A stretch of 64,000 nucleotides of DNA. Origin: a virus (Duplodnaviria; Caudoviricetes). The stretch is taken from positions 1-64,000 of the IMG/VR virus record IMGVR_UViG_3300044656_000252; one strand, given 5' to 3'. Both the position numbers and the translations under genes were made by a program. The notes below the pieces were generated by a model. It made no database searches and was not told where the DNA came from. It was given only the letters and a program-made list of their open reading frames with translations. This document shows, piece after piece, positions 12,242 to 40,633 of the stretch; within the stretch, counting starts at the first letter, position 1; each line of letters opens with the position of its first letter.

Positions 12242-12701
12242 CCACCCGACGCCGGCGCACGAGCAGCGACTAACGCTGCACATCCTCGCCCACGTCCCGG
12301 AGCACCAACCCCGCGAGTCCGACCCGCACTACCACCTGTTCATGCAGGCCAAGGCTCGGCTCCATCGGCAGGGCCTGTGGAAGTGCGTCATCGGCGACGA
12401 CCTGTGCGGCGGCCCGATCGAGCTGCACCACTCCCACATCGAGTTCTCCGAGGTCAACAACATGGACCCGGACAAGGTGGCCGAGGCGTTCGGGCTGCAC
12501 TTCGAGTCCGACGCCGACTTCCAGGCGTGGATTGAGGGACCGGGAAACCTGGAGCCGCTGTGCGCGACGCACCACCGAACGCACCTCGGCGTGCACGTGC
12601 TGCCGGGCCCGTTCTGGGAGCCGCTGCGGTATCGGCGCGCGGGTGCGCCGCCGCCGGCCGAGTTCGTGCCGGCCAGCGAGTGGGGCAAGACCCATGGGTG
12701 A
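12234..12701 (+). CDS. HNH-like endonuclease (packaging-associated candidate)
   Basis: C..C...ELHH...GNLEPLCATHHR...GVH; lies between TerS and TerL. Confidence 0.65.
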   Translation: MADHPTPAHEQRLTLHILAHVPEHQPRESDPHYHLFMQAKARLHRQGLWKCVIGDDLCGGPIELHHSHIEFSEVNNMDPDKVAEAFGLHFESDADFQAWIEGPGNLEPLCATHHRTHLGVHVLPGPFWEPLRYRRAGAPPPAEFVPASEWGKTHG

Positions 12702-13212
12702 GGCGGGGAAGCCCCCGCTGCGGCCGGCGACCGCCGAGGACGTGGCGGCGTACCGCCAGGCGCACGGCGTCCGCTCTCGCGCGGTGTGGATACGGCCGGC
12801 TGTGTTCGGCTCGTTCGACGGTCTCGTCAGCGTGCTCGGCGTCCTGTTCACCCTCGGAGGCCACCAGCAGCTCGTGTTCTGGATCGCCCTCGGCCTCGGC
12901 GCCGCCGAATGCGTCGGCATGACCGCGGGCGAATGGTTGTCGGACTCCCGCAACGGGTTCGGCGCCGCCGCGGTGATCGGCGGGGCGACCATGGCAGGCT
13001 CGGTCGCGCCGGCGGTGCCGTACCTGCTGCTCTCCGGGCGCCCGGCGGTACTCGCCTCCGTCGCCGTGCTCGTCCTCGTCGGGCTGGCCATCACCGCGCT
13101 CCGTGCCGCCGAGCGCGGCTGGAAGCGGGCGGTGCTGGAGACCTACGGCATCCTCGCCGTCGCCATCGGCGCAGTCGTCGCCATCCAACTCCTCACCCCG
13201 GCAGGTGCCTGA
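12694..13212 (+). CDS. Minimal VIT1/CCC1-family metal transporter
   Basis: RPAVFGSFDGLVS and GMTAGEWLS motifs; about 5 TM helices. Confidence 0.8.
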   Translation: MGEAGKPPLRPATAEDVAAYRQAHGVRSRAVWIRPAVFGSFDGLVSVLGVLFTLGGHQQLVFWIALGLGAAECVGMTAGEWLSDSRNGFGAAAVIGGATMAGSVAPAVPYLLLSGRPAVLASVAVLVLVGLAITALRAAERGWKRAVLETYGILAVAIGAVVAIQLLTPAGA

Positions 13213-13427
13213 TGGTCCTCGTCATGCACATGCGCAACGGCGACGCAGTCACGTACAGCCCGAGTGACGCCCAGGCAGCTCGGCTGATCAGCGGTCTCCA
13301 GCAGTACGGCTTCAGCTACAGCAACCTCACGATCGACGACGGCTCGGACGGCCAGCGCCTGGTCAACCTCGCCGCCGTCGACTGGATCGAGGTCAAGGGG
13401 GTGCCCAGTGCTGCGCCTACGCCGTGA
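13212..13427 (+). CDS. Hypothetical protein (71 aa)
   Basis: TGATG coupling. Confidence 0.55.
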   Translation: MVLVMHMRNGDAVTYSPSDAQAARLISGLQQYGFSYSNLTIDDGSDGQRLVNLAAVDWIEVKGVPSAAPTP

Positions 13428-14046
13428 CCTCCTGGACGCCGTGGTCGCCCACTGTCGCGCCGAAGCACCCCTCGAAGCGTGCGGCGTGCTCGCCGGCCGC
13501 GACGGCGTGCCCGAGCGGCACATCCCGATGCGGAACGCCGAAGCCTCTCGCACTCGCTACGCCATGGACCCCGACCAGCAGCTCGCGGTGTGGCGGGAGA
13601 TGGACGAGCGCGGCGAGCAGCCGGTGGTCATCTACCACTCCCACCCAGCCACCGAGGCCAAGCCGTCGGCGCCGGACGTGCGGTTCATGGCCGAGCCACG
13701 CAGCCACTACGTCATCGTCTCGCTCCGCGGCGAGTTGCCGGAGGTTCGGTCGTGGCGCATGGCCGCTGGCGCCGGCGTGGTGTGCGCCGGCGCGGTGACC
13801 GAGGAACCGATCGACGTCATCCACAGAGGGGAGTGGAAGACCGAGTACTTCCACGTCGGCTACATGGACGGCTCCCTGTGGGTCACCGACATTGACGGCG
13901 GCCCAGACGACGGGTGGCTCATCGTCCCGCACGGCGGCCTCGACGACCTAATAGCCGCCCTCAAATCGGCACGGAGAGTGACCGTCGACCGCCGGTTCTC
14001 GCTGTCGAGTGTCTCGGCGCACGGGGCTGAGACCCGTACCCACTAG
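13408..14046 (+). CDS. JAMM/MPN+ (M67, Mec/CysO-cysteine peptidase-like) metalloprotease with C-terminal extension
   Basis: EACGVLAG...MRN...YAMDP...IYHSHPATEAKPSAPD: intact E/HxH/S/D JAMM motif. Confidence 0.9.
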   Translation: MLRLRRDLLDAVVAHCRAEAPLEACGVLAGRDGVPERHIPMRNAEASRTRYAMDPDQQLAVWREMDERGEQPVVIYHSHPATEAKPSAPDVRFMAEPRSHYVIVSLRGELPEVRSWRMAAGAGVVCAGAVTEEPIDVIHRGEWKTEYFHVGYMDGSLWVTDIDGGPDDGWLIVPHGGLDDLIAALKSARRVTVDRRFSLSSVSAHGAETRTH

Positions 14047-15037: not shown

Positions 15038-15378
15038 GCGAGCCCGAGATCGACACGCTGAAGAAGGCCATCCGCGAGGAACTCGGCTGCCTCTGGAGCG
15101 ACCTCCACGACGCGCAGCAGAGCGGCATCCGCACCGACTGGTCCATCAAGTGCATCAACCTCGCCGAGCGGATCACCGACCTGACCAAGCTCGTCGGACC
15201 CACGCCATGGGACGAGGTGCCCCTGCCGGTGCTGGAGAACGGCGTCTACCAACGCGTCCTGGCCTCGATCGGCATCACCGCCGACGTCGACATGGCGAAG
15301 GTGGCCGAGGTGCGGGCCAGCATCGACGAACGTAACCGCCGCACGCTGGCTCATGTCGAGCGGATCAGACAGCGGTGA
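15034..15378 (+). CDS. Helical hypothetical protein with C-terminal RNRRTLAH
   Basis: SD GGAGG; ATGA coupling. Confidence 0.65.
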   Translation: MSEPEIDTLKKAIREELGCLWSDLHDAQQSGIRTDWSIKCINLAERITDLTKLVGPTPWDEVPLPVLENGVYQRVLASIGITADVDMAKVAEVRASIDERNRRTLAHVERIRQR

Positions 15379-16979
15379 CTGCGGTCCAGGATCCCGAGCC
15401 GACCCTCGATCCGGCAGACCCGGCGTCGGGGGTCGGCTTCAACCTGGACGCGTACCTCGCGCAGTTCGACCCGCGGATGCTGGAGATCGCCGAGTGCCGG
15501 CGGCTCCTCACCAAGTACGACCCGCTCTTGTTCGCCTTGCTGTATCTGCCGCACCACCTGCGGGGTAAGGAGACCGGCGAGCGCATCACGTTCAGCGAGT
15601 TCCACCTGGACGTCGTCGTCGAGGCGAAGAAGTGGGCGCTCCCATCCGACAACCCGGCGGAGGACCGGGATACCTACGTCGGCCCCCGCGGCGTCGGTAA
15701 GAGCACCTGGTTCTTCCTCGTGCTGCCCCTCTGGTCCGCGGCGCATGGGCACCGCCGGTTCTGCGCCGCCTTTGCACACTCCGCCACGCAGGCCGAGTTG
15801 CACCTCCAGACGTTCAAGCGCGAGCTCGACCAGAACGCGTTGCTGGCGCTGGACTTCCCCCAGCTGTGCACGCCGGCCCGCCGGCCGCGCGGAAGCACCG
15901 AGTCCGACAACCGCGGCATGCTGATCACCAAGTCCGGGTTCGTGTTCGCCGCCCGCGGTGTCGACGGCGCCGCCCTCGGCATGAAGGTCGCCGAGCGGCG
16001 GCCAGACCTGATCGTGCTGGACGACGTCGAGCCCGACGAGTCGAACTACTCGCCATATCTCAAGGAGAAGCGGCTCTCCACACTGCTCGACGCGATCCTG
16101 CCGCTCAACGTCTATGCCCGCGTGGTCCTGGTCGGCACCGTCACCATGCCGGGCTCCATCGTGCACGACTTGGTCAAGACCGTCACCAAGCCCGGCGAGG
16201 AACACCCGCCGTGGATTGCCGACGAGCACTGGCGAGTCCACTACTACCCGGCGATCGTCCGCGACGACGAGACTGGCGTCGAGCGGAGCCTGTGGCCGGC
16301 GAAGTGGCCACTGGCCTACCTCGAATCGATCCGGCACACCCGCGCCTACAAGAAGAACTACGCCAACGACCCCATGGGTCGGGACGGTGAGTACTGGCGC
16401 GAAGAGGACTTCGTCCACGCCACCGTGCCTGCACTCACGCACCAGCTGCTGTCGATTGACCCGGCGGTCACCGACAAGGGCAAGAGCGACTTCACCGCGC
16501 TGGCCGTCGTTGCCTACTCGGCGCACCACCGGCGGGTCGTCGTCCGCTACGCCCACGCCCGGCGCGTCCAGCCCGGCGAGCCGCTCCGCAAGTGGGTGCT
16601 GGAGGTGCTGGAGGAGTTCCCGGAGACGCGCGGCGTGGTGGTCGAGACGAACCAGGGCGGCCAAGTCTGGCGGGACAGCGTCCTCAAGGGACTCCCGCTG
16701 CCGATCAAACCGGTGCACCAGGGCGAGGCCAAGGAGGTCCGGGCCGCCCGCGCCCTGAACTGGTACCAGCGCCGCCGGCCGGACGGGCTGCCGTACGTCG
16801 TACACGAGCGTCCGCTGACGCAGGCCGAGGAGCAGATGGTCGGCTTCCCCAAGGGCGCGCATGACGACCTGGTGGATGCGATTGGCACCGGCATCGACAT
16901 GTTCCTCAAGCCGGGCAAGAAGTCGAAGGTCACCGTGCTGCCGCCGGCTGGGTTCGATGCCGATGACATCGCCTCTTGA
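15375..16979 (+). CDS. terL: Terminase large subunit
   Basis: Walker A GPRGVGKST, Walker B LIVLDD, nuclease SIDPA..SDFTA..HDDLVDA. Confidence 0.95.
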   Translation: MTAVQDPEPTLDPADPASGVGFNLDAYLAQFDPRMLEIAECRRLLTKYDPLLFALLYLPHHLRGKETGERITFSEFHLDVVVEAKKWALPSDNPAEDRDTYVGPRGVGKSTWFFLVLPLWSAAHGHRRFCAAFAHSATQAELHLQTFKRELDQNALLALDFPQLCTPARRPRGSTESDNRGMLITKSGFVFAARGVDGAALGMKVAERRPDLIVLDDVEPDESNYSPYLKEKRLSTLLDAILPLNVYARVVLVGTVTMPGSIVHDLVKTVTKPGEEHPPWIADEHWRVHYYPAIVRDDETGVERSLWPAKWPLAYLESIRHTRAYKKNYANDPMGRDGEYWREEDFVHATVPALTHQLLSIDPAVTDKGKSDFTALAVVAYSAHHRRVVVRYAHARRVQPGEPLRKWVLEVLEEFPETRGVVVETNQGGQVWRDSVLKGLPLPIKPVHQGEAKEVRAARALNWYQRRRPDGLPYVVHERPLTQAEEQMVGFPKGAHDDLVDAIGTGIDMFLKPGKKSKVTVLPPAGFDADDIAS

Positions 16980-17098: not shown

Positions 17099-18757
17099 GT
17101 GGACAAGAACCTCGCGCTCACCGATCAGGCCACCATGGGCGTCGCGGCCACCCCTACCCTCATGTCGGATTCCGCCTACGGCGTATGGCGCCCATCATCG
17201 CCCTCGGACCTGCAGAACGCGATCGAATCCCTCACCACCTCCGCGGTGCTCTACCAGCGCGCCGAGAACTACTACGAGGGCACCGTCCCCGAGTTCTTCG
17301 CCTCGATCCGGCTCCGCCGCGCCATGGCCCGCACCGGTGTGGGGTTCCGGTTCAACTTCGCCAAGACCCCCGTGGACGCTGTCGTCGACCGCCTGGAGAT
17401 CAACGCCGTCTCCGCGACCGACGAGAACAGCAACGCCCGCATCGAGGACATGTGGCGCGACAACCAGCTCGACCTCGAGGCCCCGCACATCATGCTCAAG
17501 GCGTGCGAGTACGGCGACGCCTACGTCATCGTCTGGCCCACCGCCCCGGACGGCGCCGACGACTTCGAGGGCGACGGGTCACCGCAGCTGCTCGACACCG
17601 ACGCCGACGGGTTCCTCAACGTCGACATCTTCTACAACAGCCCGCACTGCTGCCGGGTCTTCTACGACCCCGAGCGCCCACTGCGGAAGCGGTACGCGGT
17701 CAAGAAATGGATCTTGAACAACACCCAGCAGGTCCGCATCGACCTGTACTACCCGGACCGCATCGAGCGGTTCATCTCCAAGGAGGGCGTCACCAACGTC
17801 GAGGCCACCGACATGCACCCGTACCGGGACAACCCGGGTGACGAGTGGCCGCTCGTAAATCCGTTCAACGAGGTCCCCGTCTTTCACTTCCGCGCGGCCA
17901 GCCGGCCGTACGGCAAGCCGGAGCACCTGTCCGCGTTCGGCCCGCAGGACGCGATCCACAAGCTGATCCTCAGCCACATGGCTGGCGTCGACTACCAAGC
18001 CTTCCCCCAGCGGTACGCGCTCACCGCGCCGGACACCGACACCGCCGACGCCGTCAACTCCGACGAGGACGAGTTCAGCTTCGCCCTCGACACCGGCGCC
18101 ACCAGCCGGCCATCCGACCCGCAGTCCCAGCTGACCAGCGACCCCGGCTCGCTCTGGTACATGCAGGGCGTCACCGAGGTCGGCCAGTTCGCCGAGGCCA
18201 ACCCCGAGACGTTCATGGGCCCGCTCCAGGTCTACCTGCGGGCCATGGCCCAGCTGTGCGTCACCCCGTTCCACTACTTCGACCCCAGTGGCGACGCCCC
18301 GTCCGGCGAGTCCCTGCGCACCGCCGAGGGGCCGTTCGTCAAGAAGATCGTGAACCGCCAGCTGTCCTTCGGCGCGACCTGGCGGGAGATCTTCGAGTTC
18401 GCCCTGCGCATCACCGGCGTCCCCGACCCCAAGGTCACCGTGCACTGGAAGTCCCCGGCCAGCGTGGACGACCTCACCGGCTGGCAGACCGTCCAGGCCA
18501 AGCTCGACGCCGGTGTCCCGCCGGCGCAGGCGTTCCAGGAGGCCGGCTACACCAAGGACCAGACCGACGAGTGGTTCGGCGACAACGACGACGACCTGCC
18601 GTTCCGCGTGCACCTGCTCTCGGAGATCGCCGTCGCGTTGCAGGGCCTCTCGGCCGCGGCCTCGACCGGCATCGTCGACGAGGGCCAGGTGCAGGAGCTG
18701 ATCAGCTCGATCATCGGCGAGCCCGAGCTCATGGGTCCCGACACGGGCACAGCGTGA
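17099..18757 (+). CDS. Portal protein (SPP1 gp6-like)
   Basis: 552 aa after TerL; AENYYEG, NFAKTPVDAVVDRL, VPVFHF, PSGESLR motifs. Confidence 0.92.
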   Translation: MDKNLALTDQATMGVAATPTLMSDSAYGVWRPSSPSDLQNAIESLTTSAVLYQRAENYYEGTVPEFFASIRLRRAMARTGVGFRFNFAKTPVDAVVDRLEINAVSATDENSNARIEDMWRDNQLDLEAPHIMLKACEYGDAYVIVWPTAPDGADDFEGDGSPQLLDTDADGFLNVDIFYNSPHCCRVFYDPERPLRKRYAVKKWILNNTQQVRIDLYYPDRIERFISKEGVTNVEATDMHPYRDNPGDEWPLVNPFNEVPVFHFRAASRPYGKPEHLSAFGPQDAIHKLILSHMAGVDYQAFPQRYALTAPDTDTADAVNSDEDEFSFALDTGATSRPSDPQSQLTSDPGSLWYMQGVTEVGQFAEANPETFMGPLQVYLRAMAQLCVTPFHYFDPSGDAPSGESLRTAEGPFVKKIVNRQLSFGATWREIFEFALRITGVPDPKVTVHWKSPASVDDLTGWQTVQAKLDAGVPPAQAFQEAGYTKDQTDEWFGDNDDDLPFRVHLLSEIAVALQGLSAAASTGIVDEGQVQELISSIIGEPELMGPDTGTA

Positions 18758-19833
18758 CCGCCCCGCAGCCGCCGCAGACCCCGAACCAGCCGACGCTGCA
18801 GCTGGTGCTGGAGCACGCCGCCGAGGCGCTGGCCCTCGAGCGGGCGGCCCGCGGTGTCGCGGCGCCACTACGCGCCAAGCTGAAGGCGCTCACGCGCACG
18901 CTCTCCGCCTTGTGGGTGCGGAAGGTTGGCCGGGTCGACGAGCCGGCCGACCCGATCACGCTGCACGACATCGCCACCGAGACACGCAACCGCCTCGCCG
19001 ACATCCGGTTCACCCCGGCCGACGAACTGACTCGGTACGCGGAGCAGGCCATCGACCTCGGTGTGCGGCAGGCCGTGGACGAACTGCACCTCCACGCCAC
19101 CGAAGGAGCCGTCGAGCACGTCCTGCCGGCGACCGGCCGCCGCGCGGCTCGTTTCGAGTGGCCAGCGGCCGACCTCGACCAGGCCACCGTGGACGCGATC
19201 CGCGCCGTGGACGCCACCGTCGCCGGCAAGCTCGCCGACGCCGAAACCGCCGTCACGCGCATCGCCGGCAACAACTTCGCCGAGCTGGCCACCGCACTGT
19301 CGCCGGCGCAGCAGGCAGCGACCGCGACCGAGGCGACCGCAACATGGGCCACGAACAAGGCCGTCAACGACGGCGTCGCCGCGGTCGCTGACCAGCTCGA
19401 CGCCGAGCGGCTGTGGGTCGCGGAGCGGGACGCGTGCGTGCACTGCCTCGCCTACTCCGGGCACGTCGCGAGAGCTGGCCAGGGCTTCCCGGTCGGGCTG
19501 ACGTTCGGCGACAAGCCGCTGGTGCCGTGGCCGGACCCGATGTTCCTGCCCGGATGCCCGCTGCACCCGCACTGCCGGTGCCGGATCACGGTGTGGCTGG
19601 GCAGCGTGCCCGGCTACACCGGCCCCGACCTGCCGGCCGCGCTTCGCCGGGAGGCCGAGCGCAGCATCCTCACCGGCTGGCGCATGGCGTCCGAGTCCCA
19701 GCCGGCCAGGCTCCGCGCCGCGTCTCGGCTGCTCGCCCGCGGCACGACCCTGCCGAAGTCCGTGCAGGCCCGTGCCCGCACCGCGGTCCGCCGCGGCCGG
19801 TTCAACGACTTCCCCCGCAAGGCCCGATCATGA
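18754..19833 (+). CDS. Head morphogenesis / minor capsid protein (MuF/SPP1 gp7-like)
   Basis: WVAERDACVHC...PLHPHCRC; follows portal. Confidence 0.85.
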   Translation: MTAPQPPQTPNQPTLQLVLEHAAEALALERAARGVAAPLRAKLKALTRTLSALWVRKVGRVDEPADPITLHDIATETRNRLADIRFTPADELTRYAEQAIDLGVRQAVDELHLHATEGAVEHVLPATGRRAARFEWPAADLDQATVDAIRAVDATVAGKLADAETAVTRIAGNNFAELATALSPAQQAATATEATATWATNKAVNDGVAAVADQLDAERLWVAERDACVHCLAYSGHVARAGQGFPVGLTFGDKPLVPWPDPMFLPGCPLHPHCRCRITVWLGSVPGYTGPDLPAALRREAERSILTGWRMASESQPARLRAASRLLARGTTLPKSVQARARTAVRRGRFNDFPRKARS

Positions 19834-19850
19834 TCGAAAGGAACGCCGCC

Positions 19851-20633
19851 ATGCTGCTCGACCTGCCCATCCACCCGGACACGCTCCTGCCCGCCATCGG
19901 GCTGCTCTCCGACGGCACGCCCGTCTGGCCGGCGCTCGGCGGCGCCAACGATGACGACGACGGCCCCGAGATCGACCTGGAGGGCGGCGGCTCGCAGGGC
20001 AGCGGCGGCGGCCGGGACATCCTCGACGACGAAGACGACGAAGACGAGGAGGACGAGCACGACGACGGCGCCGACAAGGCCAAGGGCGACGAGTGGAAGC
20101 CGCCCACCCGCGAGGAGTGGGAGAAGACCCAGAAGGCCCTCACCGAGGCGAACGCCGAGGCCAAGAAGCACCGGCTCCGCGTCCGCGAGCTCCGCAAGTC
20201 CACTCGCGCCGCCGAGCAGGGCGGCGGCCAGGCCGGCGACGAGGACGCCGCGGCGCGGGAGCAGGCCGCACTGGAGGCCGCCGAGCAGAAGTTCAAGCCG
20301 GTTGCCATCCGGTCGGCCGCGATCGCCGCGCTGATGAAGGCGGACTTCCGCAACCCCACCGAGCAGCGCCTGAACCGCATGATCCGGCGCCTGGACATGG
20401 ACGAGCTCGACGTCGACACCGAGACCGGGAAGGTCGACGGCCTCGAGGACCAGATCGACGACCTGGTCGACGAGTTCCCCGAGCTGTTCGGCAAGGACGC
20501 CGAGCCGGAGCCGGCCAAGCCGGAGCGCCGCCGCGCGCCGCGGATCGACGCCGGGAACAAGCAGCCCGCGCCCGCGCAGTTCAAGACGACGGGGGAACGG
20601 ATCGCCGCGCAGATCCACAACTCGATGCGGTAG
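19851..20633 (+). CDS. Capsid scaffolding protein with N-terminal leader
   Basis: Acidic N-terminus, coiled coil EAKKHRLR, DEFPELF, position before MCP; alternative ATG at 19830. Confidence 0.85.
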   Translation: MLLDLPIHPDTLLPAIGLLSDGTPVWPALGGANDDDDGPEIDLEGGGSQGSGGGRDILDDEDDEDEEDEHDDGADKAKGDEWKPPTREEWEKTQKALTEANAEAKKHRLRVRELRKSTRAAEQGGGQAGDEDAAAREQAALEAAEQKFKPVAIRSAAIAALMKADFRNPTEQRLNRMIRRLDMDELDVDTETGKVDGLEDQIDDLVDEFPELFGKDAEPEPAKPERRRAPRIDAGNKQPAPAQFKTTGERIAAQIHNSMR

Positions 20634-20680
20634 ACGCAATTCCCTAAACCGTGTGAAAACGAATAGGGGAAACGCGCCTA

Positions 20681-20850
20681 GAAAGCGCCCACACTATCCG
20701 TGTCGGGCGCTTTCGCGTGTATTCTCCGAGACAGCAGGCCACCCGGATGGGACGGCCCGCTAGGACCGGCGATCGGGCAATTCAAATGCCCTGACGTGCC
20801 CGTGATGGGGCGCAGGACACCACCGCACCCATCACTCGGAAGGGCACGCG
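20681..20850 (+). promoter_or_regulatory. Structured 5' leader of the capsid gene (three stem-loops; the last one covers the SD)
   Basis: GAAAGCGCCC/GGGCGCTTTC; GGGCA/TGCCC; CGTGCCC+GTGATGGG paired with CCCATCAC+GGGCACG. Confidence 0.55.
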
Positions 20851-20852
20851 CC

Positions 20853-21911
20853 GTGTCTGCATCCCAGTTCGACCTCGACCTGTTCGACGAGTCCGTTCCG
20901 GCGCACGACGTCGGCGACATCCTCGGCTACCGCCGCAACGGCGAGCCGATCCGCGCCCTCGGTGGCAGCGCCCGCAACAACTTCGACGCCTGGGTCTGGG
21001 AGGAGTTCGGCTCCGACGTCATCCAGAAGGTCAAGCAGGTCTCGGCGATCGAGTCCTACGGCCAGCGGGTCCCGATGAAGACCGCCACGCGCTCGACCCC
21101 GCGGTCTGGCGGTGTCGGCATCGACATCGTGGCCAAGGGCGGGACGTACGGCGAGGACCAGTCGACCAACGACCAGGTCATCCTGAGCGTCCAGAAGTTC
21201 GGCAAGGCCGTGCGGATCGCCGAGGAGGACATCGACGACAGCCTGGCGGACGTGGTCAACACCAAGCTGTCCGACTGGGCCACGGCTTACGCCAAGGGCC
21301 TCGACAACGCCTGCTTGGGCGTCACCGCGGCGAAGGCGACCTCTGGCTGCGCGTTCGACTCGCTGTACTACACGCTCACCCAGACCGACTCGGCGACCGG
21401 CTACCAGGCCAACACGAACCTGACCAAGACCGGTTCGGGTGGCACCACCTACGACCTGCTGTCCACCACGGTCGGCCTGGTCGAGACCGGCGACTACTGG
21501 GACGAGGAGCAGGCCCTCGTGCTCGCGCACCCGACGTTCAAGAGGAAGTTGCGCGGCATCAAGGACCTCAACGGCCGGCCGATCTTCCAGGAGTCCAGCG
21601 GCGGCTTCCCCGGTGGCGGCCAGGCGTCCACCCCGGACATGCTGTTCGGCTACCCGGTCAAGTGGACGCTGGGTGCCCGCACCTCGGCAGCGCCGACGGC
21701 GACGCCGACCGGCAACCCGCTGCTGGTCATCTGCTCGAAGGAGTTCCTGCTGCTCGGTGTCCGCAGTGGACCCGAGTCCGTCTTCATTGACGGGAGGAAT
21801 GGATTGGCCGCCTTGACCGACGAGTCGATCCTCAAGATGCGTGCTCGGCGCGCGTTCGCCGTCGGCCACGAGAACGCCTTCTCCGTGCTGGAAGACAACT
21901 CCGGCAGCTGA
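20853..21911 (+). CDS. Major capsid protein (HK97 fold)
   Basis: EEFGSDVIQKV, KFGKAVRIAEEDIDDS, LRGIKDLNGRPIF, MLFGYPV, ILKMRARRAFAV. Confidence 0.92.
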   Translation: MSASQFDLDLFDESVPAHDVGDILGYRRNGEPIRALGGSARNNFDAWVWEEFGSDVIQKVKQVSAIESYGQRVPMKTATRSTPRSGGVGIDIVAKGGTYGEDQSTNDQVILSVQKFGKAVRIAEEDIDDSLADVVNTKLSDWATAYAKGLDNACLGVTAAKATSGCAFDSLYYTLTQTDSATGYQANTNLTKTGSGGTTYDLLSTTVGLVETGDYWDEEQALVLAHPTFKRKLRGIKDLNGRPIFQESSGGFPGGGQASTPDMLFGYPVKWTLGARTSAAPTATPTGNPLLVICSKEFLLLGVRSGPESVFIDGRNGLAALTDESILKMRARRAFAVGHENAFSVLEDNSGS

Positions 21912-36131: not shown

Positions 36132-37111
36132 TGTCGACGACCACGACCCGCGCAGCGCTGGTCAAGCCGGCGACGAGCGAGTTTTACGACGTCACGATCT
36201 TCAACGCGAACGCCGACAAGATCGACAACCTGGTGGGGTTCACGCCGGCCACCAGCACCACCAGGCCGTCCACACCCATCGCCGGACAGGGGGTGCTGGA
36301 GTCAGACACTGGCGCTGCGGTGGTGTCCAACGGATCAAGCCCGGCGTCAGCGTCCTGGAGCTACCTGCACGGCACCGGTGGCCCTGCAACGCTCGGTGCG
36401 ACCGGGGCACAGGCAGCGCTGCGGATCCAGACCACCGCCACGATCTCTGGTAATCGGGTCGTCGACTTCCGCAAGTCCGGCGACACCAACGCCAGCTTCA
36501 TCCAGGACTTCGACGGACGGATGCAGTGGGGCCCCGGCGGGTCAACCAATGTGGACGTCAACTTGTACCGTGCCAGCGCCGGCGTCCTGAAAACGGACAA
36601 CACGATCAACGCCGTCACGGATGTCCAGGTCAACGGGAGCAGTCTGTCGCGGGGAGTCGTTGGCGGCCGGCAGATCACCGGCACCAACAACCTCGGCCCC
36701 ACGATCACCACGACCGAGACCGAACCGACCAACATGGACAGTGGATCGGTCGCGCTGAGCTCGAACCGCCGATACCGGATCACGGTCCGGTTCAAAGCGC
36801 TCGGCTCTGTCGCCAACGACATCTACTCCCTGAAGATCAGGGTCGGCGCGACGGCGGGCACAGGCGGAAACCAACTTCGGGAGAACGTGTTCACCATCCT
36901 GGCCAACGGGATCGGGTACACGGACGAGTTCTCCACAGACTACGAGACCGGCAGCAGTCCCGGATCGCTGGTGTTCACGATGACCGCGGTTCGCGTGTCT
37001 GGCAGCGGCAACATCCAGTTCCAGGGTGGTGCGGCCGGGCTCGCCAACCCTGTTGGCGTGGTCGTCAAGGACGAAGGCCCTGCCAACGTGCTCACTACCA
37101 CCGCCAGCTGA
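36131..37111 (+). CDS. Minor tail/fibre protein
   Basis: LVKP..E.YDV..FNANADKID N-terminus; DVNLYRASAGVLKTD motif. Confidence 0.75.
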   Translation: MSTTTTRAALVKPATSEFYDVTIFNANADKIDNLVGFTPATSTTRPSTPIAGQGVLESDTGAAVVSNGSSPASASWSYLHGTGGPATLGATGAQAALRIQTTATISGNRVVDFRKSGDTNASFIQDFDGRMQWGPGGSTNVDVNLYRASAGVLKTDNTINAVTDVQVNGSSLSRGVVGGRQITGTNNLGPTITTTETEPTNMDSGSVALSSNRRYRITVRFKALGSVANDIYSLKIRVGATAGTGGNQLRENVFTILANGIGYTDEFSTDYETGSSPGSLVFTMTAVRVSGSGNIQFQGGAAGLANPVGVVVKDEGPANVLTTTAS

Positions 37112-37124
37112 CAAGGAGACGAAC

Positions 37125-38096
37125 ATGCTCGGTCTGGACTACTCGGGAGGGCGACCGTCCGGCGCGGCCATCTACGCCGCCAGCTATCGGTTCGTCGTGC
37201 GGTACCTGGAGAACGGCCTCGGTGGCGGCCGATACAACCTAACTGCAGCCGAGTTCGCCGACCTACGCGCCAACGGCGTCGCGGTCGCGCTCGTCTGGGA
37301 GTCACAGGCCAACCGCGCAGCAGCTGGCCATGACGCCGGCGTCGCCGATGCGCGAGCGGCGCTCGCCGCGGCCGATGCTGTCGGCGCGTCAGGCTGGCCG
37401 ATCTACTTCGCGGTGGACTTCGACATCCCCGACTATGCGCCGGCCGCCATGTCGGCGCTCGCCAAGCTCGGCCCCGTCGGGGACTACCTCGCGGGCGCCG
37501 CCAGCGTGCTCGGGCACAGTCGCACCGGCGTGTACGGCGGCTACTACGCGGTTTCCCGGGCGCTGGACGCCGGGCTGGCCAGTCTCGCCTGGCAGACAGA
37601 GGCCTGGTCCGGCGGCCAGGTCGACCCGCGCATCCACCTCCTTCAACGCCTCGGCACCGTCGTGGTCGACGGCGTCGAGTGCGACACCAACGAGGCCCGG
37701 CAGGCCAGCTTCGGGCAGCAACCCCCGGGAGCGGTTCGCTCCCCGAACAGTGAGGACGACGACATGTGGAAGTTTCTGGTCGACGAGGGAACCGTGCAGA
37801 CGGACGGTTCCTACACCCGGTGCGCCGAACTCCTGCCCACCGCCGAGCTCATCGGCACCAGCTGGGCCGACATCAGCGCCAAGCTGGCCGAGGCCAAGGC
37901 CGGCGGTGCGCCGGCAAGCGTGCGCGGCGTCGACACCGCCGTGTTCGACGACTACGAGAAGAACTCCGATGCACACAAGGCCGCCACCGCCGCCCTCGCC
38001 AAGCTGACGAGCGGCGGCGGCGGAGTGACGGCCGCGCCGACGTCGCTCGCTTTCGATCTCGCCGTGACCGGCACGGCCACCCCTAAGACCTCGTGA
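37125..38096 (+). CDS. Endolysin, DUF1906 (GH25-like) glycoside hydrolase
   Basis: GLDYS..FVVRYL..VALVWE..PIYFAVDFD..GVYGG..WQTEAWS..CDTN. Confidence 0.85.
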   Translation: MLGLDYSGGRPSGAAIYAASYRFVVRYLENGLGGGRYNLTAAEFADLRANGVAVALVWESQANRAAAGHDAGVADARAALAAADAVGASGWPIYFAVDFDIPDYAPAAMSALAKLGPVGDYLAGAASVLGHSRTGVYGGYYAVSRALDAGLASLAWQTEAWSGGQVDPRIHLLQRLGTVVVDGVECDTNEARQASFGQQPPGAVRSPNSEDDDMWKFLVDEGTVQTDGSYTRCAELLPTAELIGTSWADISAKLAEAKAGGAPASVRGVDTAVFDDYEKNSDAHKAATAALAKLTSGGGGVTAAPTSLAFDLAVTGTATPKTS

Positions 38097-39667: not shown

Positions 39668-40633
39668 ATGACGGCGATGGAACCGCAGCGGGCCGGGCGA
39701 CTCGGCCGGCTCCCGAACGACCCGAGCAAGCCGCGGCTCAAGCTCGCGCCGCACCTGAACACGGCGGTGCCCCCGAACCCCGCGGTGGTGGACTGGCTCT
39801 CGCGGGTCGGGTCGTGGCCGATGTACGGCAACGACCAGTACGGCGACTGCGTGTGGGCGATGATCGGACACCTGATCGAGGCGTTCTCCACGTACGGCGG
39901 CGGCAGCACCGTCACCGTGCCGGAGCAGGCGCTGCTCGACGGCTACACGGCGGTCACCGGATTCGACCCGTCCGACCCGAGCACCGACAACGGCACCGTC
40001 ATCCAGGACGCGCTGGCCTACTGGCTGAAGGTGGGCATCGCCGGGCACAAGATCCTGGCCTACGCCGAGGTCGACATCCACAACCAGTCCGAGGTGGACG
40101 CGGCGATCAACGTGTTCGGCGCCCTGTGCCTCGGGGTGAACCTGCCGAACTCCGCGATGGACCAGTTCAACGCCGGCCAGCCCTGGACGGTGGTCGCCCC
40201 GGACGGCGGTATCGACGGCGGCCACGCGGTGCCGGTCGGCTACTACAGCACGCCGGGCGAGACCGTGCGCGTGGTGACGTGGGCGCGGACGCAGGACGTG
40301 GCCGACGCGTGGTGGTCGCAGTACGTCGAGGAGGCGTGGATCGTCGTCGCGCCGGAGTGGCTGGACGCAACCGGTCACAACCCGGAGGGGATCGACCTAC
40401 ACGGGTTGGGTGAGGACTTCGCCGCGCTGACCGGGAGGCCCAACCCGTTTCCCGTCCAGCCCACCCCCGGTCCTACTCCCGTCCCTGCTCCGCCGGTTGC
40501 GGACGCTGCTGACCAGGCTCTGGTCGCTGCTCTCCGGCCGTGGCTGAGCGAGCACCACGTCGGAGACAACCGGCACGCGGTGCACGCCGTGGAGACGTGG
40601 ATGGCGGCGAAGGGACTGTCGCTGGCCTCGTGA
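39668..40633 (+). CDS. Papain-fold (C1-like) cysteine peptidase
   Basis: VDW..GNDQYGDC (catalytic Cys), DNGT, GGHAVPVGY (His), VVTW. Confidence 0.8.
   Translation: MTAMEPQRAGRLGRLPNDPSKPRLKLAPHLNTAVPPNPAVVDWLSRVGSWPMYGNDQYGDCVWAMIGHLIEAFSTYGGGSTVTVPEQALLDGYTAVTGFDPSDPSTDNGTVIQDALAYWLKVGIAGHKILAYAEVDIHNQSEVDAAINVFGALCLGVNLPNSAMDQFNAGQPWTVVAPDGGIDGGHAVPVGYYSTPGETVRVVTWARTQDVADAWWSQYVEEAWIVVAPEWLDATGHNPEGIDLHGLGEDFAALTGRPNPFPVQPTPGPTPVPAPPVADAADQALVAALRPWLSEHHVGDNRHAVHAVETWMAAKGLSLAS

What the first reader, a model, noticed from the sequence alone, without database searches (positions are those of the whole stretch)
19851..20970. Scaffold and major capsid protein share an N-terminal leader ending in ALGG, and no prohead protease gene is present
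Seen: scaffold ...AIGLLSDGTPVWPALGG|ANDDD (GG at 19938-19943) and capsid ...ILGYRRNGEPIRALGG|SARNNF (GG at 20961-20966) align well, while the rest of the two proteins is unrelated. No S14/S49/U9/U35-type protease ORF is visible between portal and capsid. Established: staphylococcal phage 80alpha scaffold and capsid carry a shared leader removed by the host Prp protease. Inference: an analogous actinobacterial system cleaves after a di-glycine, using a host enzyme or a phage enzyme (the JAMM protease at 13408, a class that cuts after Gly-Gly, or the C1-like peptidase at 39668).
Basis: partly seen in the sequence, partly recalled or inferred. Interest (0 to 1): 0.72.

Follow-up and report, generated by a model that had tools for sequence, protein, structure and literature searches.

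The report
Shared leader on phage scaffold and capsid
An actinobacterial phage with no usual head protease starts its scaffold and capsid proteins with the same short peptide ending in Gly-Gly; many related phages carry this undescribed tag on their scaffolds, and it is probably cut off by an unidentified enzyme.

Summary
The scaffold (19830-20633) and major capsid protein (20853-21911) each begin with a 38-residue extension ending in LGG, at the stated coordinates. Alone the pair is only weakly alike (p about 0.03). Comparison makes it solid: dozens of relatives share the motif h-[IL]-G-[YHFW]-x-x-[DN]-G-x-P-[IV]-[YWH]-x-h-x-G-[GA], followed by Ala. Most homologous capsids start M-ARN exactly where this leader ends.

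Three states occur: leader on both proteins, on the scaffold only, or on neither. Capsid-only was never seen. The same leader heads non-homologous scaffolds (SV1 gp6, Nesbitt gp5, a Nonomuraea prophage) and a delta-domain capsid that sits beside an S78 protease. It is therefore a portable scaffold module, not a substitute for a missing protease.

The complete 76-kb genome has no S78, S49, ClpP, S77 or C39 peptidase. The papain-like ORF at 39668 is rejected.

The JAMM gene at 13408 is an intact homologue of the host Mec (CysO-cysteine hydrolase). It was found only in phages with a capsid leader, and often directly upstream of the capsid gene. Several leader-bearing phages lack it, so it is a candidate, not proven. 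Cleavage itself is inferred.

The parts
19830..19943 (+). Scaffold leader, 38 aa (31 aa if ATG 19851 is the start), ending PALGG
   Evidence: Conserved in 30+ scaffold homologues. AF2 gives residues 9-37 pLDDT about 80 as a small beta unit that ends at the GG.
19944..20633 (+). Scaffold body: disordered acidic linker, then long helices (PF06810 Phage_scaffold)
   Evidence: Pfam E = 1.2e-11; PHROG 4708; AF2 shows a disordered linker at 38-86 and helices at 94-170. Leaderless homologues start M-A-D-D at this point.
20634..20852 (.). Scaffold-capsid intergenic region, with a terminator-like hairpin and the capsid ribosome-binding site
   Evidence: Read directly from the sequence. In relatives the same gap holds inserted accessory genes, including the JAMM gene.
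20853..20966 (+). Capsid leader, 38 aa, ending RALGG
   Evidence: About 110 of 150 capsid representatives start M-A-R-x at query residue 40. Leader-bearing relatives are shown.
20967..21911 (+). Major capsid protein core (HK97-type, PF05065)
   Evidence: Pfam E = 6.8e-18; PHROG 10.
13408..14046 (+). JAMM/MPN+ metalloprotease, a homologue of host Mec; the candidate leader peptidase, unproven
   Evidence: PF14464 E = 2.3e-29. Motif E23, H77-S-H79, S87, D90 is invariant in 9 phage copies. Best NCBIfam hit is desampylase. 50-51% identical to host cysO-adjacent JAMM. Solved relatives include PfJAMM1, 5LDA.
18754..19833 (+). MuF-like minor head protein
   Evidence: PHROG 241; conserved ERDACVHC...HPxCRC motif; no peptidase signature.
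17099..18757 (+). SPP1-type portal protein
   Evidence: PF05133 and PHROG 104.
15375..16979 (+). Large terminase
   Evidence: A weak Terminase_6C match; 47% identical to the annotated large terminase of phage Rooney.
39668..40633 (+).
   Evidence: PHROG 19005, function unknown; lies after endolysin and holin-like genes. Matches at E <= 1e-40 in only 2 of 32 related records, neither with a capsid leader, plus one weak partial match in a third.

Best explanation
The two leaders are copies of one portable N-terminal module: a roughly 20-residue beta-hairpin ending in G-[GA]. Primarily it belongs to actinophage scaffolding proteins. In this lineage it has also been placed on the major capsid protein, exactly in front of that protein's normal N-terminus. 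It most likely acts early in procapsid assembly, as the 80alpha scaffold leader does. It is then most likely removed by one cut after G-[GA], leaving Ala-Arg-Asn... on the capsid and Ala-Asp-Asp... on the scaffold. These are the same N-termini that leaderless homologues have after Met removal. The cutting enzyme is not a classical prohead protease. My best specific candidate is a Mec-type JAMM metalloprotease, either the host's own or the phage's diverged copy at 13408-14046, with the leader's h-A-G-G tail imitating the C-terminal tail of CysO/ThiS/MoaD carriers. Shown: the module, its distribution, the absence of head proteases, and the nature of the JAMM gene. Inferred: cleavage (about 0.65) and JAMM as the enzyme (about 0.5 given cleavage).
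For: The module is real and modular: 54 distinct leaders align to one motif. Leaderless capsid homologues start M-ARN and leaderless scaffolds start M-ADD exactly at the junction. The states seen are both, scaffold-only or neither, never capsid-only. Within one phage the two leaders resemble each other more than leaders paired across phages (43.7 against 37.7 +/- 1.4). AF2 folds the scaffold leader as a confident small unit ending at the GG, followed by a disordered linker. The same leader heads non-homologous scaffolds and a delta-domain capsid, which suggests a conserved partner. No S78, S49, ClpP, S77 or C39 peptidase is in the genome. For the JAMM: the catalytic motif is intact. It is of the desampylase/Mec type and 35-59% identical to host cysO-linked JAMMs. 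The phage has no ThiS-like gene. It occurs in 10 of 14 near-complete records with a capsid leader and 0 of 13 without one. It lies directly upstream of the capsid gene in L055-57 and L043, and between scaffold and capsid in L026, L027 and L022. In the 50,697-genome phage collection its only homologue is in Dryad, which also has a capsid leader. Host tails read ...ILPAVAGG...LTAVQGG and ...LPPFAGG, against leader tails ...PIAGG...LFAGG and ...ALGG. A host Mec homologue was found in 105 of 121 sampled Actinomycetes genomes. Mec cleaves after CysO's C-terminus (PMC8280819).
Against: No cleavage data exist for any of these phages. Leader-bearing genomes without a phage JAMM include G002, G008, G010, the complete G011, and Rooney. 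None of the scaffold-only phages, nor SV1 or Nesbitt, has one. On the capsid tree there are only 2-3 independent contrasts, so the JAMM-leader association cannot be separated from shared ancestry. The JAMM gene's position varies: before the terminase, in the scaffold-capsid gap among accessory genes next to an Acb5-named gene, or far away (on the opposite strand in G012 and Dryad). That pattern is typical of accessory or anti-defence genes. The last residue is often Ala or Ser, even in JAMM-positive phages, whereas ubiquitin-like tails are strictly GG. The leader on a delta-domain capsid beside an S78 protease shows that it has a role other than being a cleavage signal.
Confidence: 0.35

Rival explanations
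1. The leader is an uncleaved assembly module. The scaffold's N-terminal hairpin binds a partner inside the procapsid: another leader, the capsid interior, the portal or the MuF-like protein. The capsid copy joins the same contact, and the G-[GA] is only a hinge. The scaffold leaves intact and the capsid keeps its extension.
For: The leader sits on a delta-domain capsid that already has an S78 protease and on scaffolds next to annotated proteases. Capsid-only carriers were never seen, and same-phage leaders co-vary, as expected if leaders pair with each other. AF2 gives a folded unit on a long disordered tether. In 80alpha the scaffold leader is essential while its cleavage is not (PMC5744158).
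Against: On capsids the motif abuts the normal first residue with no linker or length variation, and the junction residues are always tiny. Very similar leaders on unrelated scaffolds in different host genera fit a conserved external partner better than a self-contact, which would drift.
Confidence: 0.28
2. The leader is a propeptide cut by some other host protease, not a JAMM, in a literal parallel to 80alpha and Prp. The phage JAMM then serves another purpose: counter-defence against ubiquitin-like conjugation systems, or boosting cysteine supply.
For: Between the window phage and Rooney, both with leaders, only terminase, portal, MuF-like, scaffold, capsid and adaptor are shared, so no common phage enzyme exists. 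Most leader carriers have no JAMM. G-A and G-S endings are unusual for JAMM substrates. In the Lentzea prophage the JAMM gene overlaps a gene of a Pfam family named Acb5, inside an accessory island. Phage JAMMs evolve much faster than host Mec.
Against: No candidate enzyme could be named. Prp was not found in five host genomes. No host protein carries the leader, so there is no L27-like natural substrate.
Confidence: 0.22
3. A phage-encoded protease other than the JAMM does the cutting: the papain-like ORF at 39668, or a hidden activity of the MuF-like or portal protein.
For: ORF 39668 has a Cys/His pair in a papain-like setting. The MuF-like protein is present in all these phages and has a conserved Cys/His cluster.
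Against: Outside this genome, ORF 39668 matches strongly in only 2 of 32 related records, neither with a capsid leader, and it lies beside the lysis genes. MuF-like proteins are equally present in leaderless phages and match no peptidase family.
Confidence: 0.05
4. Chance resemblance or mis-called start codons: the leaders are not translated.
For: The pairwise similarity within the window alone is marginal (p = 0.03).
Against: The peptide is conserved at the protein level across relatives whose capsids are 35-76% identical. No alternative start lies downstream without loss of the conserved N-arm. The junction falls at the same place in two protein families.
Confidence: 0.02

Closest known systems
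Staphylococcus phage 80alpha capsid (CP) and scaffold (SP) leaders, removed by host protease Prp (PMC5744158)
   Same: In both, scaffold and HK97-type capsid carry one short N-terminal motif and the phage has no prohead protease. The gene order also matches: portal, minor head protein, scaffold, capsid. In 80alpha the motif also sits on non-homologous proteins of other phages. The 80alpha scaffold leader is essential while the capsid leader is dispensable, which fits the finding here that scaffold-only carriers are common and capsid-only carriers were not seen.
   Different: The motif differs: 13-14 residues cut between F and A in 80alpha, against a 20-38-residue hairpin ending G-[GA]. In 80alpha the motif copies the N-terminus of host ribosomal protein L27. 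Here no host protein has the motif, and Prp was not found in five hosts. Cleavage is proven there and only inferred here.
Mec / desampylase-type JAMM proteases with ThiS/MoaD/CysO-like carriers (Mec-CysO of actinomycetes, PMC8280819; PfJAMM1-SAMP2, PDB 5LDA)
   Same: The phage enzyme has the full JAMM motif and is 35-59% identical to host Mec homologues. These enzymes cut the bond after a C-terminal ...h-x-G-G tail, and the leader ends ...h-A-G-G.
   Different: The natural substrates are roughly 90-residue beta-grasp proteins, not a 20-residue hairpin. The phage has no such carrier gene. The leader's last residue may be Ala or Ser. No JAMM is known as a capsid maturation protease (my knowledge, plus no paper found).
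T4 capsid-targeting sequence and prohead-protease propeptides (gp21; HK97 gp4, S78)
   Same: Short N-terminal peptides shared by head proteins and removed during maturation.
   Different: Those need a phage-encoded prohead protease, and none is present here. Only two proteins carry the tag, so this is not a cargo-loading system.
GG-X / AG-X maturation sites of adenovirus, ASFV and poxvirus cysteine proteases (from my own knowledge)
   Same: Capsid and scaffold precursors are cut after (I/L/M)-x-G-G, the same four-residue pattern as I-A-G-G here.
   Different: Those enzymes are clan CE cysteine proteases of eukaryotic viruses. No such gene was seen here, though it was not specifically searched for.
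Double-glycine bacteriocin leaders cut by C39 peptidase domains
   Same: An N-terminal leader ending G-G, G-A or G-S.
   Different: Those leaders are amphipathic helices and are cut during export. This one is Gly/Pro-rich and predicted to be beta. No C39 domain is in the phage.

Membership tests
80alpha/Prp-type host-processed capsid and scaffold leader | The same N-terminal motif on scaffold and capsid of one phage | tested here: met
80alpha/Prp-type host-processed capsid and scaffold leader | The motif copies the N-terminus of a host protein (L27) that the protease normally processes | tested here: not met
   In five host genomes the leader profile found only the prophage leaders themselves; the next best hit had E = 0.026 and was partial.
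80alpha/Prp-type host-processed capsid and scaffold leader | The host encodes Prp (PF04327) | tested here: not met
   0 of 5 host genomes matched at E <= 0.01; the controls B. subtilis and L. lactis were positive.
80alpha/Prp-type host-processed capsid and scaffold leader | The leader is absent from mature virion proteins | not testable with these tools
   Needs N-terminal sequencing or MS.
Phage_scaffold PF06810 | Profile match above the curated cut-off | tested here: met
   45.3 bits against a cut-off of 35.
HK97-type major capsid protein PF05065 | Profile match above the curated cut-off | tested here: met
   65.5 bits against a cut-off of 24.2.
JAMM/MPN+ metalloprotease, Mec/desampylase type (ORF 13408) | The E...H-x-H-x7-S-x2-D metal site | tested here: met
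   E23, H77, H79, S87 and D90 are invariant in 9 phage copies.
JAMM/MPN+ metalloprotease, Mec/desampylase type (ORF 13408) | Equivalog-level match to desampylase NF041370 | tested here: not met
   80.4 bits against a cut-off of 130: related, but not an equivalog.
JAMM/MPN+ metalloprotease, Mec/desampylase type (ORF 13408) | A neighbouring ThiS/MoaD/CysO-like substrate gene | tested here: not met
   No PF02597 match at E <= 1 in the whole phage genome. Host copies do sit beside cysO.
Classical prohead protease system (S78, S49, S14, S77) | A protease gene in the phage genome | tested here: not met
   No match at E <= 1 for four families in the complete genome.
Double-glycine leader / C39 system | A C39 peptidase domain and a helical LSxxELxxIxGG leader | tested here: not met
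   No PF03412 match. The leader is Gly/Pro-rich and predicted to be beta.

The most novel reading that the evidence does not exclude
Actinomycete phages mature their heads with a JAMM metalloprotease. Scaffold and capsid leaders mimic the ...A-G-G tail of the host sulfur carrier CysO, so that the host's Mec enzyme, or a captured and fast-evolving phage copy placed next to the capsid gene, trims them. This would be the first JAMM-based capsid maturation and the second known case, with a different enzyme class, of a phage borrowing a host housekeeping protease for head assembly.
Probability: 0.3. Interest if true: 0.8.

Novelty: new variant of a known kind. Interest (0 to 1): 0.62.

Why it matters
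Head maturation without a phage protease is understood in only one system, 80alpha with Prp, and even there the purpose of the leader is unknown. This is a second, unrelated leader. It is widespread on scaffolds of Streptomyces, Pseudonocardiaceae, Nonomuraea and Micromonospora phages and prophages, and it spans at least four capsid families. I found no Pfam model and no paper that describes it.

The natural distribution already suggests some function: the scaffold copy is primary, and the capsid copy occurs only alongside it. Cultivable SEA-PHAGES isolates (Rooney, Dryad, Nesbitt, SV1) make the question directly testable. If the Mec-type JAMM is the enzyme, this links a sulfur-carrier pathway to virus assembly and adds a new protease class to capsid maturation. 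It also has practical value for annotation: start codons of these capsid and scaffold genes, and the meaning of 'metalloprotease' genes in actinophages.

Tried and rejected
- **AF2 of the capsid with leader:** the model was poor (pLDDT 58). The leader showed only a weak hairpin, so it was not used as evidence beyond that.
- **Papain-like ORF 39668:** no Pfam or NCBIfam hit. It matches PHROG 19005 (function unknown), lies next to the lysis genes, and is absent from nearly all leader-bearing relatives. Rejected.
- **MuF-like protein as protease:** no peptidase match. It is equally present in leaderless phages, and its length differences were not informative.
- **Repeated capture of host mec by phages:** the JAMM tree puts all 14 phage copies outside one tight host cluster, on long branches. 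There is no sign of multiple acquisitions.
- **Independent-contrast test of JAMM against capsid leader:** only 2-3 contrasts were available, so it has no power.
- **A host protein with the leader (L27 analogue):** none found in five host genomes.
- **PDB relatives of capsid or scaffold by sequence:** none useful.
- **Leader-only searches of the large protein database:** Region searches gave few candidates but did reveal P0205 and P0206.
- **A wide capsid alignment for locus finding:** too divergent. A narrower one worked.
- **Literature:** no paper describing this motif, or a JAMM in capsid maturation, was found. The phiJoe and ArV2 proteome papers gave nothing on N-termini.
Full report
**What is there.** The window is bases 1-64000 of a complete 76,231-bp phage record with direct terminal repeats and 69% G+C. 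The head module is contiguous on the + strand:
- large terminase, 15375-16979
- SPP1-type portal, 17099-18757
- MuF-like minor head protein, 18754-19833
- scaffold, 19830-20633 (PF06810)
- a 220-nt gap with a terminator-like hairpin
- HK97-type major capsid protein, 20853-21911 (PF05065)

The scaffold could instead start at ATG 19851, which still includes the motif. The capsid cannot start after the motif without losing its conserved N-arm.

**Is it more than chance?** Taken alone, the two leaders are only marginally alike. The local alignment score is 27 against 18.3 +/- 3.6 for shuffles (p = 0.03). Relatives make the case.
- Of 150 capsid representatives clustered at 50% identity, about 110 start M-A-R-x at query residue 40. 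About a dozen carry an N-terminal extension ending G-G or G-A just before that point.
- Scaffold homologues show the same split. About 35 carry a leader such as ...LPVHPxxGxxALAVLxGxPVWPxxG[GA]|A-DDDD, or ...IIGWLRNGTKPVYVQAGG|AEDDDD. About eight start M-A-D....
- Aligned together, capsid and scaffold leaders form one motif: h-[IL]-G-[YHFW]-x-x-[DNS]-G-x-P-[IV]-[YWHR]-x-h-x-G-[GA], then Ala.
- A profile made only from other phages' scaffold leaders picks out the window's capsid leader at the right position (E = 0.029). No third ORF in this phage, in Rooney or in the Lentzea prophage carries the motif.

**Distribution.** I examined 80 IMG/VR loci and 22 loci in bacterial genomes that encode related capsids. 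Three states occur:
- leader on both proteins: this phage, its Pseudonocardiaceae-type relatives, and the BN-cluster Streptomyces phages Rooney and Dryad
- leader on the scaffold only: a large clade of roughly 78-kb Streptomyces proviruses
- leader on neither: Zuko, and L029-L036 among others

A capsid leader without a scaffold leader was not seen. The apparent exceptions have a diverged scaffold leader (L062, L063) or contigs that end before the scaffold gene. Within a phage the two leaders share idiosyncrasies: IIGW-RNGT in L014, IGYL-SGKPVY in L042, and a G-A ending in both L043 and L035. Same-phage pairs score higher than cross-phage pairs (43.7 against 37.7 +/- 1.4, permutation p about 1e-4). 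Phylogeny is not controlled in that test.

**The module is portable.** Leader-only searches found the same peptide on scaffolds that are not homologous to PF06810:
- a Nonomuraea prophage, P0205: ...GEIIGYRKDGRPIRLIAGG|S
- Streptomyces phage SV1 gp6: ...GTVLGYRRDGRPIHVIAGG|N
- Nesbitt gp5: ...ALGLRKDGRPIWPIKGG|S

Each sits next to a leaderless capsid of another family. The leader also heads a 499-residue capsid with a fused coiled-coil delta domain (P0206...RIIGYRKDGRPIREVAGG|A). The gene upstream of that capsid is an S78 prohead protease. So the leader is a scaffold N-terminal module that moves between head-assembly systems. It is not tied to the lack of a protease. AF2 on 33 scaffold sequences models residues 9-37 as a confident small beta unit (pLDDT about 80). 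It ends at the GG and is followed by a disordered acidic linker (38-86) and long helices.

**Proteases.** The complete genome gives no match at E <= 1 to S78, S49, ClpP, S77 or C39. The window phage and Rooney both carry leaders, yet they share only terminase, portal, MuF-like, scaffold, capsid and adaptor genes. No dedicated phage protease is therefore common to the leader carriers. The papain-like ORF at 39668 lies after the endolysin and holin-like genes. Outside this genome it matches strongly in only two of 32 related records, neither with a capsid leader. It is rejected.

**The JAMM gene (13408-14046): evidence for.**
- It has an intact E...HSH-x7-S-x2-D site, conserved in nine phage copies.
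- Its best curated match is the archaeal desampylase model, below the equivalog cut-off. Solved relatives include PfJAMM1.
- Phage copies are 35-59% identical to the host JAMM gene next to cysO in Saccharothrix, Actinosynnema, Pseudonocardia and Streptomyces, that is, the Mec homologue. Mec releases cysteine from the CysO-cysteine adduct (PMC8280819).
- The phage has no ThiS/CysO-like gene. The only ...h-x-G-G modules it encodes are the two leaders.
- Host carrier tails read ...ILPAVAGG...LTAVQGG and ...LPPFAGG, which resemble the leader tails ...PIAGG...LFAGG and ...ALGG.
- Whole-record searches found the JAMM in 10 of 14 near-complete records with a capsid leader and in 0 of 13 without one.
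- In L055-57 and L043 the JAMM gene lies directly upstream of the capsid gene. In L026, L027 and L022 it lies between the scaffold and capsid genes.
- In 50,697 deposited phage genomes its only homologue is in Dryad, another capsid-leader phage.

**The JAMM gene: evidence against.**
- At least five capsid-leader genomes lack it: G002, G008, G010, the complete G011, and Rooney. All scaffold-only phages, SV1 and Nesbitt also lack it.
- The capsid tree offers only 2-3 independent contrasts.
- The gene's location is variable, and in the Lentzea prophage it sits in an accessory island beside a gene of a family named Acb5.
- Leaders often end in G-A or G-S, even in JAMM-positive phages.
- Phage JAMMs sit on long branches outside a tight host cluster. 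That fits a changed function but does not say which one.

A host Mec homologue was found in 105 of 121 sampled Actinomycetes genomes. Six of those 121 are unpublished genomes (G074, G063, G061, G046, G067, G055), so the tally rests partly on them. They were left out of the tree. A host enzyme could thus serve the phages that lack their own copy.

**Comparison with 80alpha.** In 80alpha, host Prp removes 13-14 residues from both capsid and scaffold proteins. The motif copies the N-terminus of ribosomal protein L27. The scaffold leader is essential for assembly although its cleavage is not, and the capsid leader is dispensable (PMC5744158). The present system shares the logic, and also the primacy of the scaffold copy. 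It differs in motif and in the absence of Prp from five hosts. It also lacks any host protein with the same leader.

**Verdict.** I rate cleavage after G-[GA] at about 0.65. My reasons are the linker-less junction on capsids, the identical mature N-termini, and the tiny junction residues. I rate a Mec-type JAMM, host or phage, at about half of that. The main rival is an uncleaved assembly hairpin. I found no Pfam model and no paper describing the motif, so I class it as a new variant of the 80alpha kind.

Noticed in passing
window 20634-20852; also L007 10802-18096, L026 5236-9946, L056 8904-9841: The scaffold-capsid intergenic gap holds a terminator-like hairpin and the capsid RBS in the window. 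In relatives it is an insertion hotspot. The Lentzea/Saccharothrix-type prophages hold about 13 genes there, including a JAMM, a gene on record as Pfam Acb5, DUF6221 and a TROVE (Ro60-like) gene.
   Followed up: partly
window 12532-13212 (+): A VIT1/CCC1-family membrane protein ORF (PF01988, E = 1.3e-8) lies just upstream of the JAMM gene, which is unusual cargo for a phage. A 70-aa ORF (13215-13427) with no family match overlaps the JAMM start.
   Followed up: partly
window 39668-40633 (+): A papain-like Cys/His protein (GDCVWA...GGHAV) with a Pro-rich linker and a C-terminal domain sits downstream of the endolysin (37026-38096) and a holin-like ORF. It matches PHROG 19005 (function unknown) and is probably a second lysis enzyme.
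   Followed up: partly
L059 3991-7591 (also L058, L045): Two large proteins with C-terminal ADP-ribosyltransferase exotoxin domains (PF03496) are inserted between the portal and MuF-like genes. The Nonomuraea prophage L182 fuses the same domain to its minor capsid protein 2.
   Followed up: no
L181 1-2612: An S78 prohead protease with a C-terminal zinc ribbon is followed by a delta-domain capsid that starts with the same leader (IIGYRKDGRPIREVAGG).
   Followed up: partly
window 13408-14046 vs L040 3302-4009: Two phages whose capsids are 99% identical have JAMM proteins only 66% identical overall, with unrelated C-terminal extensions of roughly 80-100 aa. The JAMM evolves much faster than the head genes.
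   Followed up: no
L002 5895-6776, L003 4934-5833: Scaffolds of the BN-cluster phages Rooney and Dryad carry a longer, diverged leader (GVDGYEPGWAHPYATDPFSPVFYADGG in Rooney). In Dryad it ends S-G rather than G-G, although Dryad has a JAMM gene.
   Followed up: no
L004 5184-5888, L005 5143-5850: Scaffolds of the Microbacterium phages Wyvern and OscarSo have a different conserved N-terminus (...FAKSASG, then an acidic run) in front of leaderless capsids. This may be another leader type.
   Followed up: no
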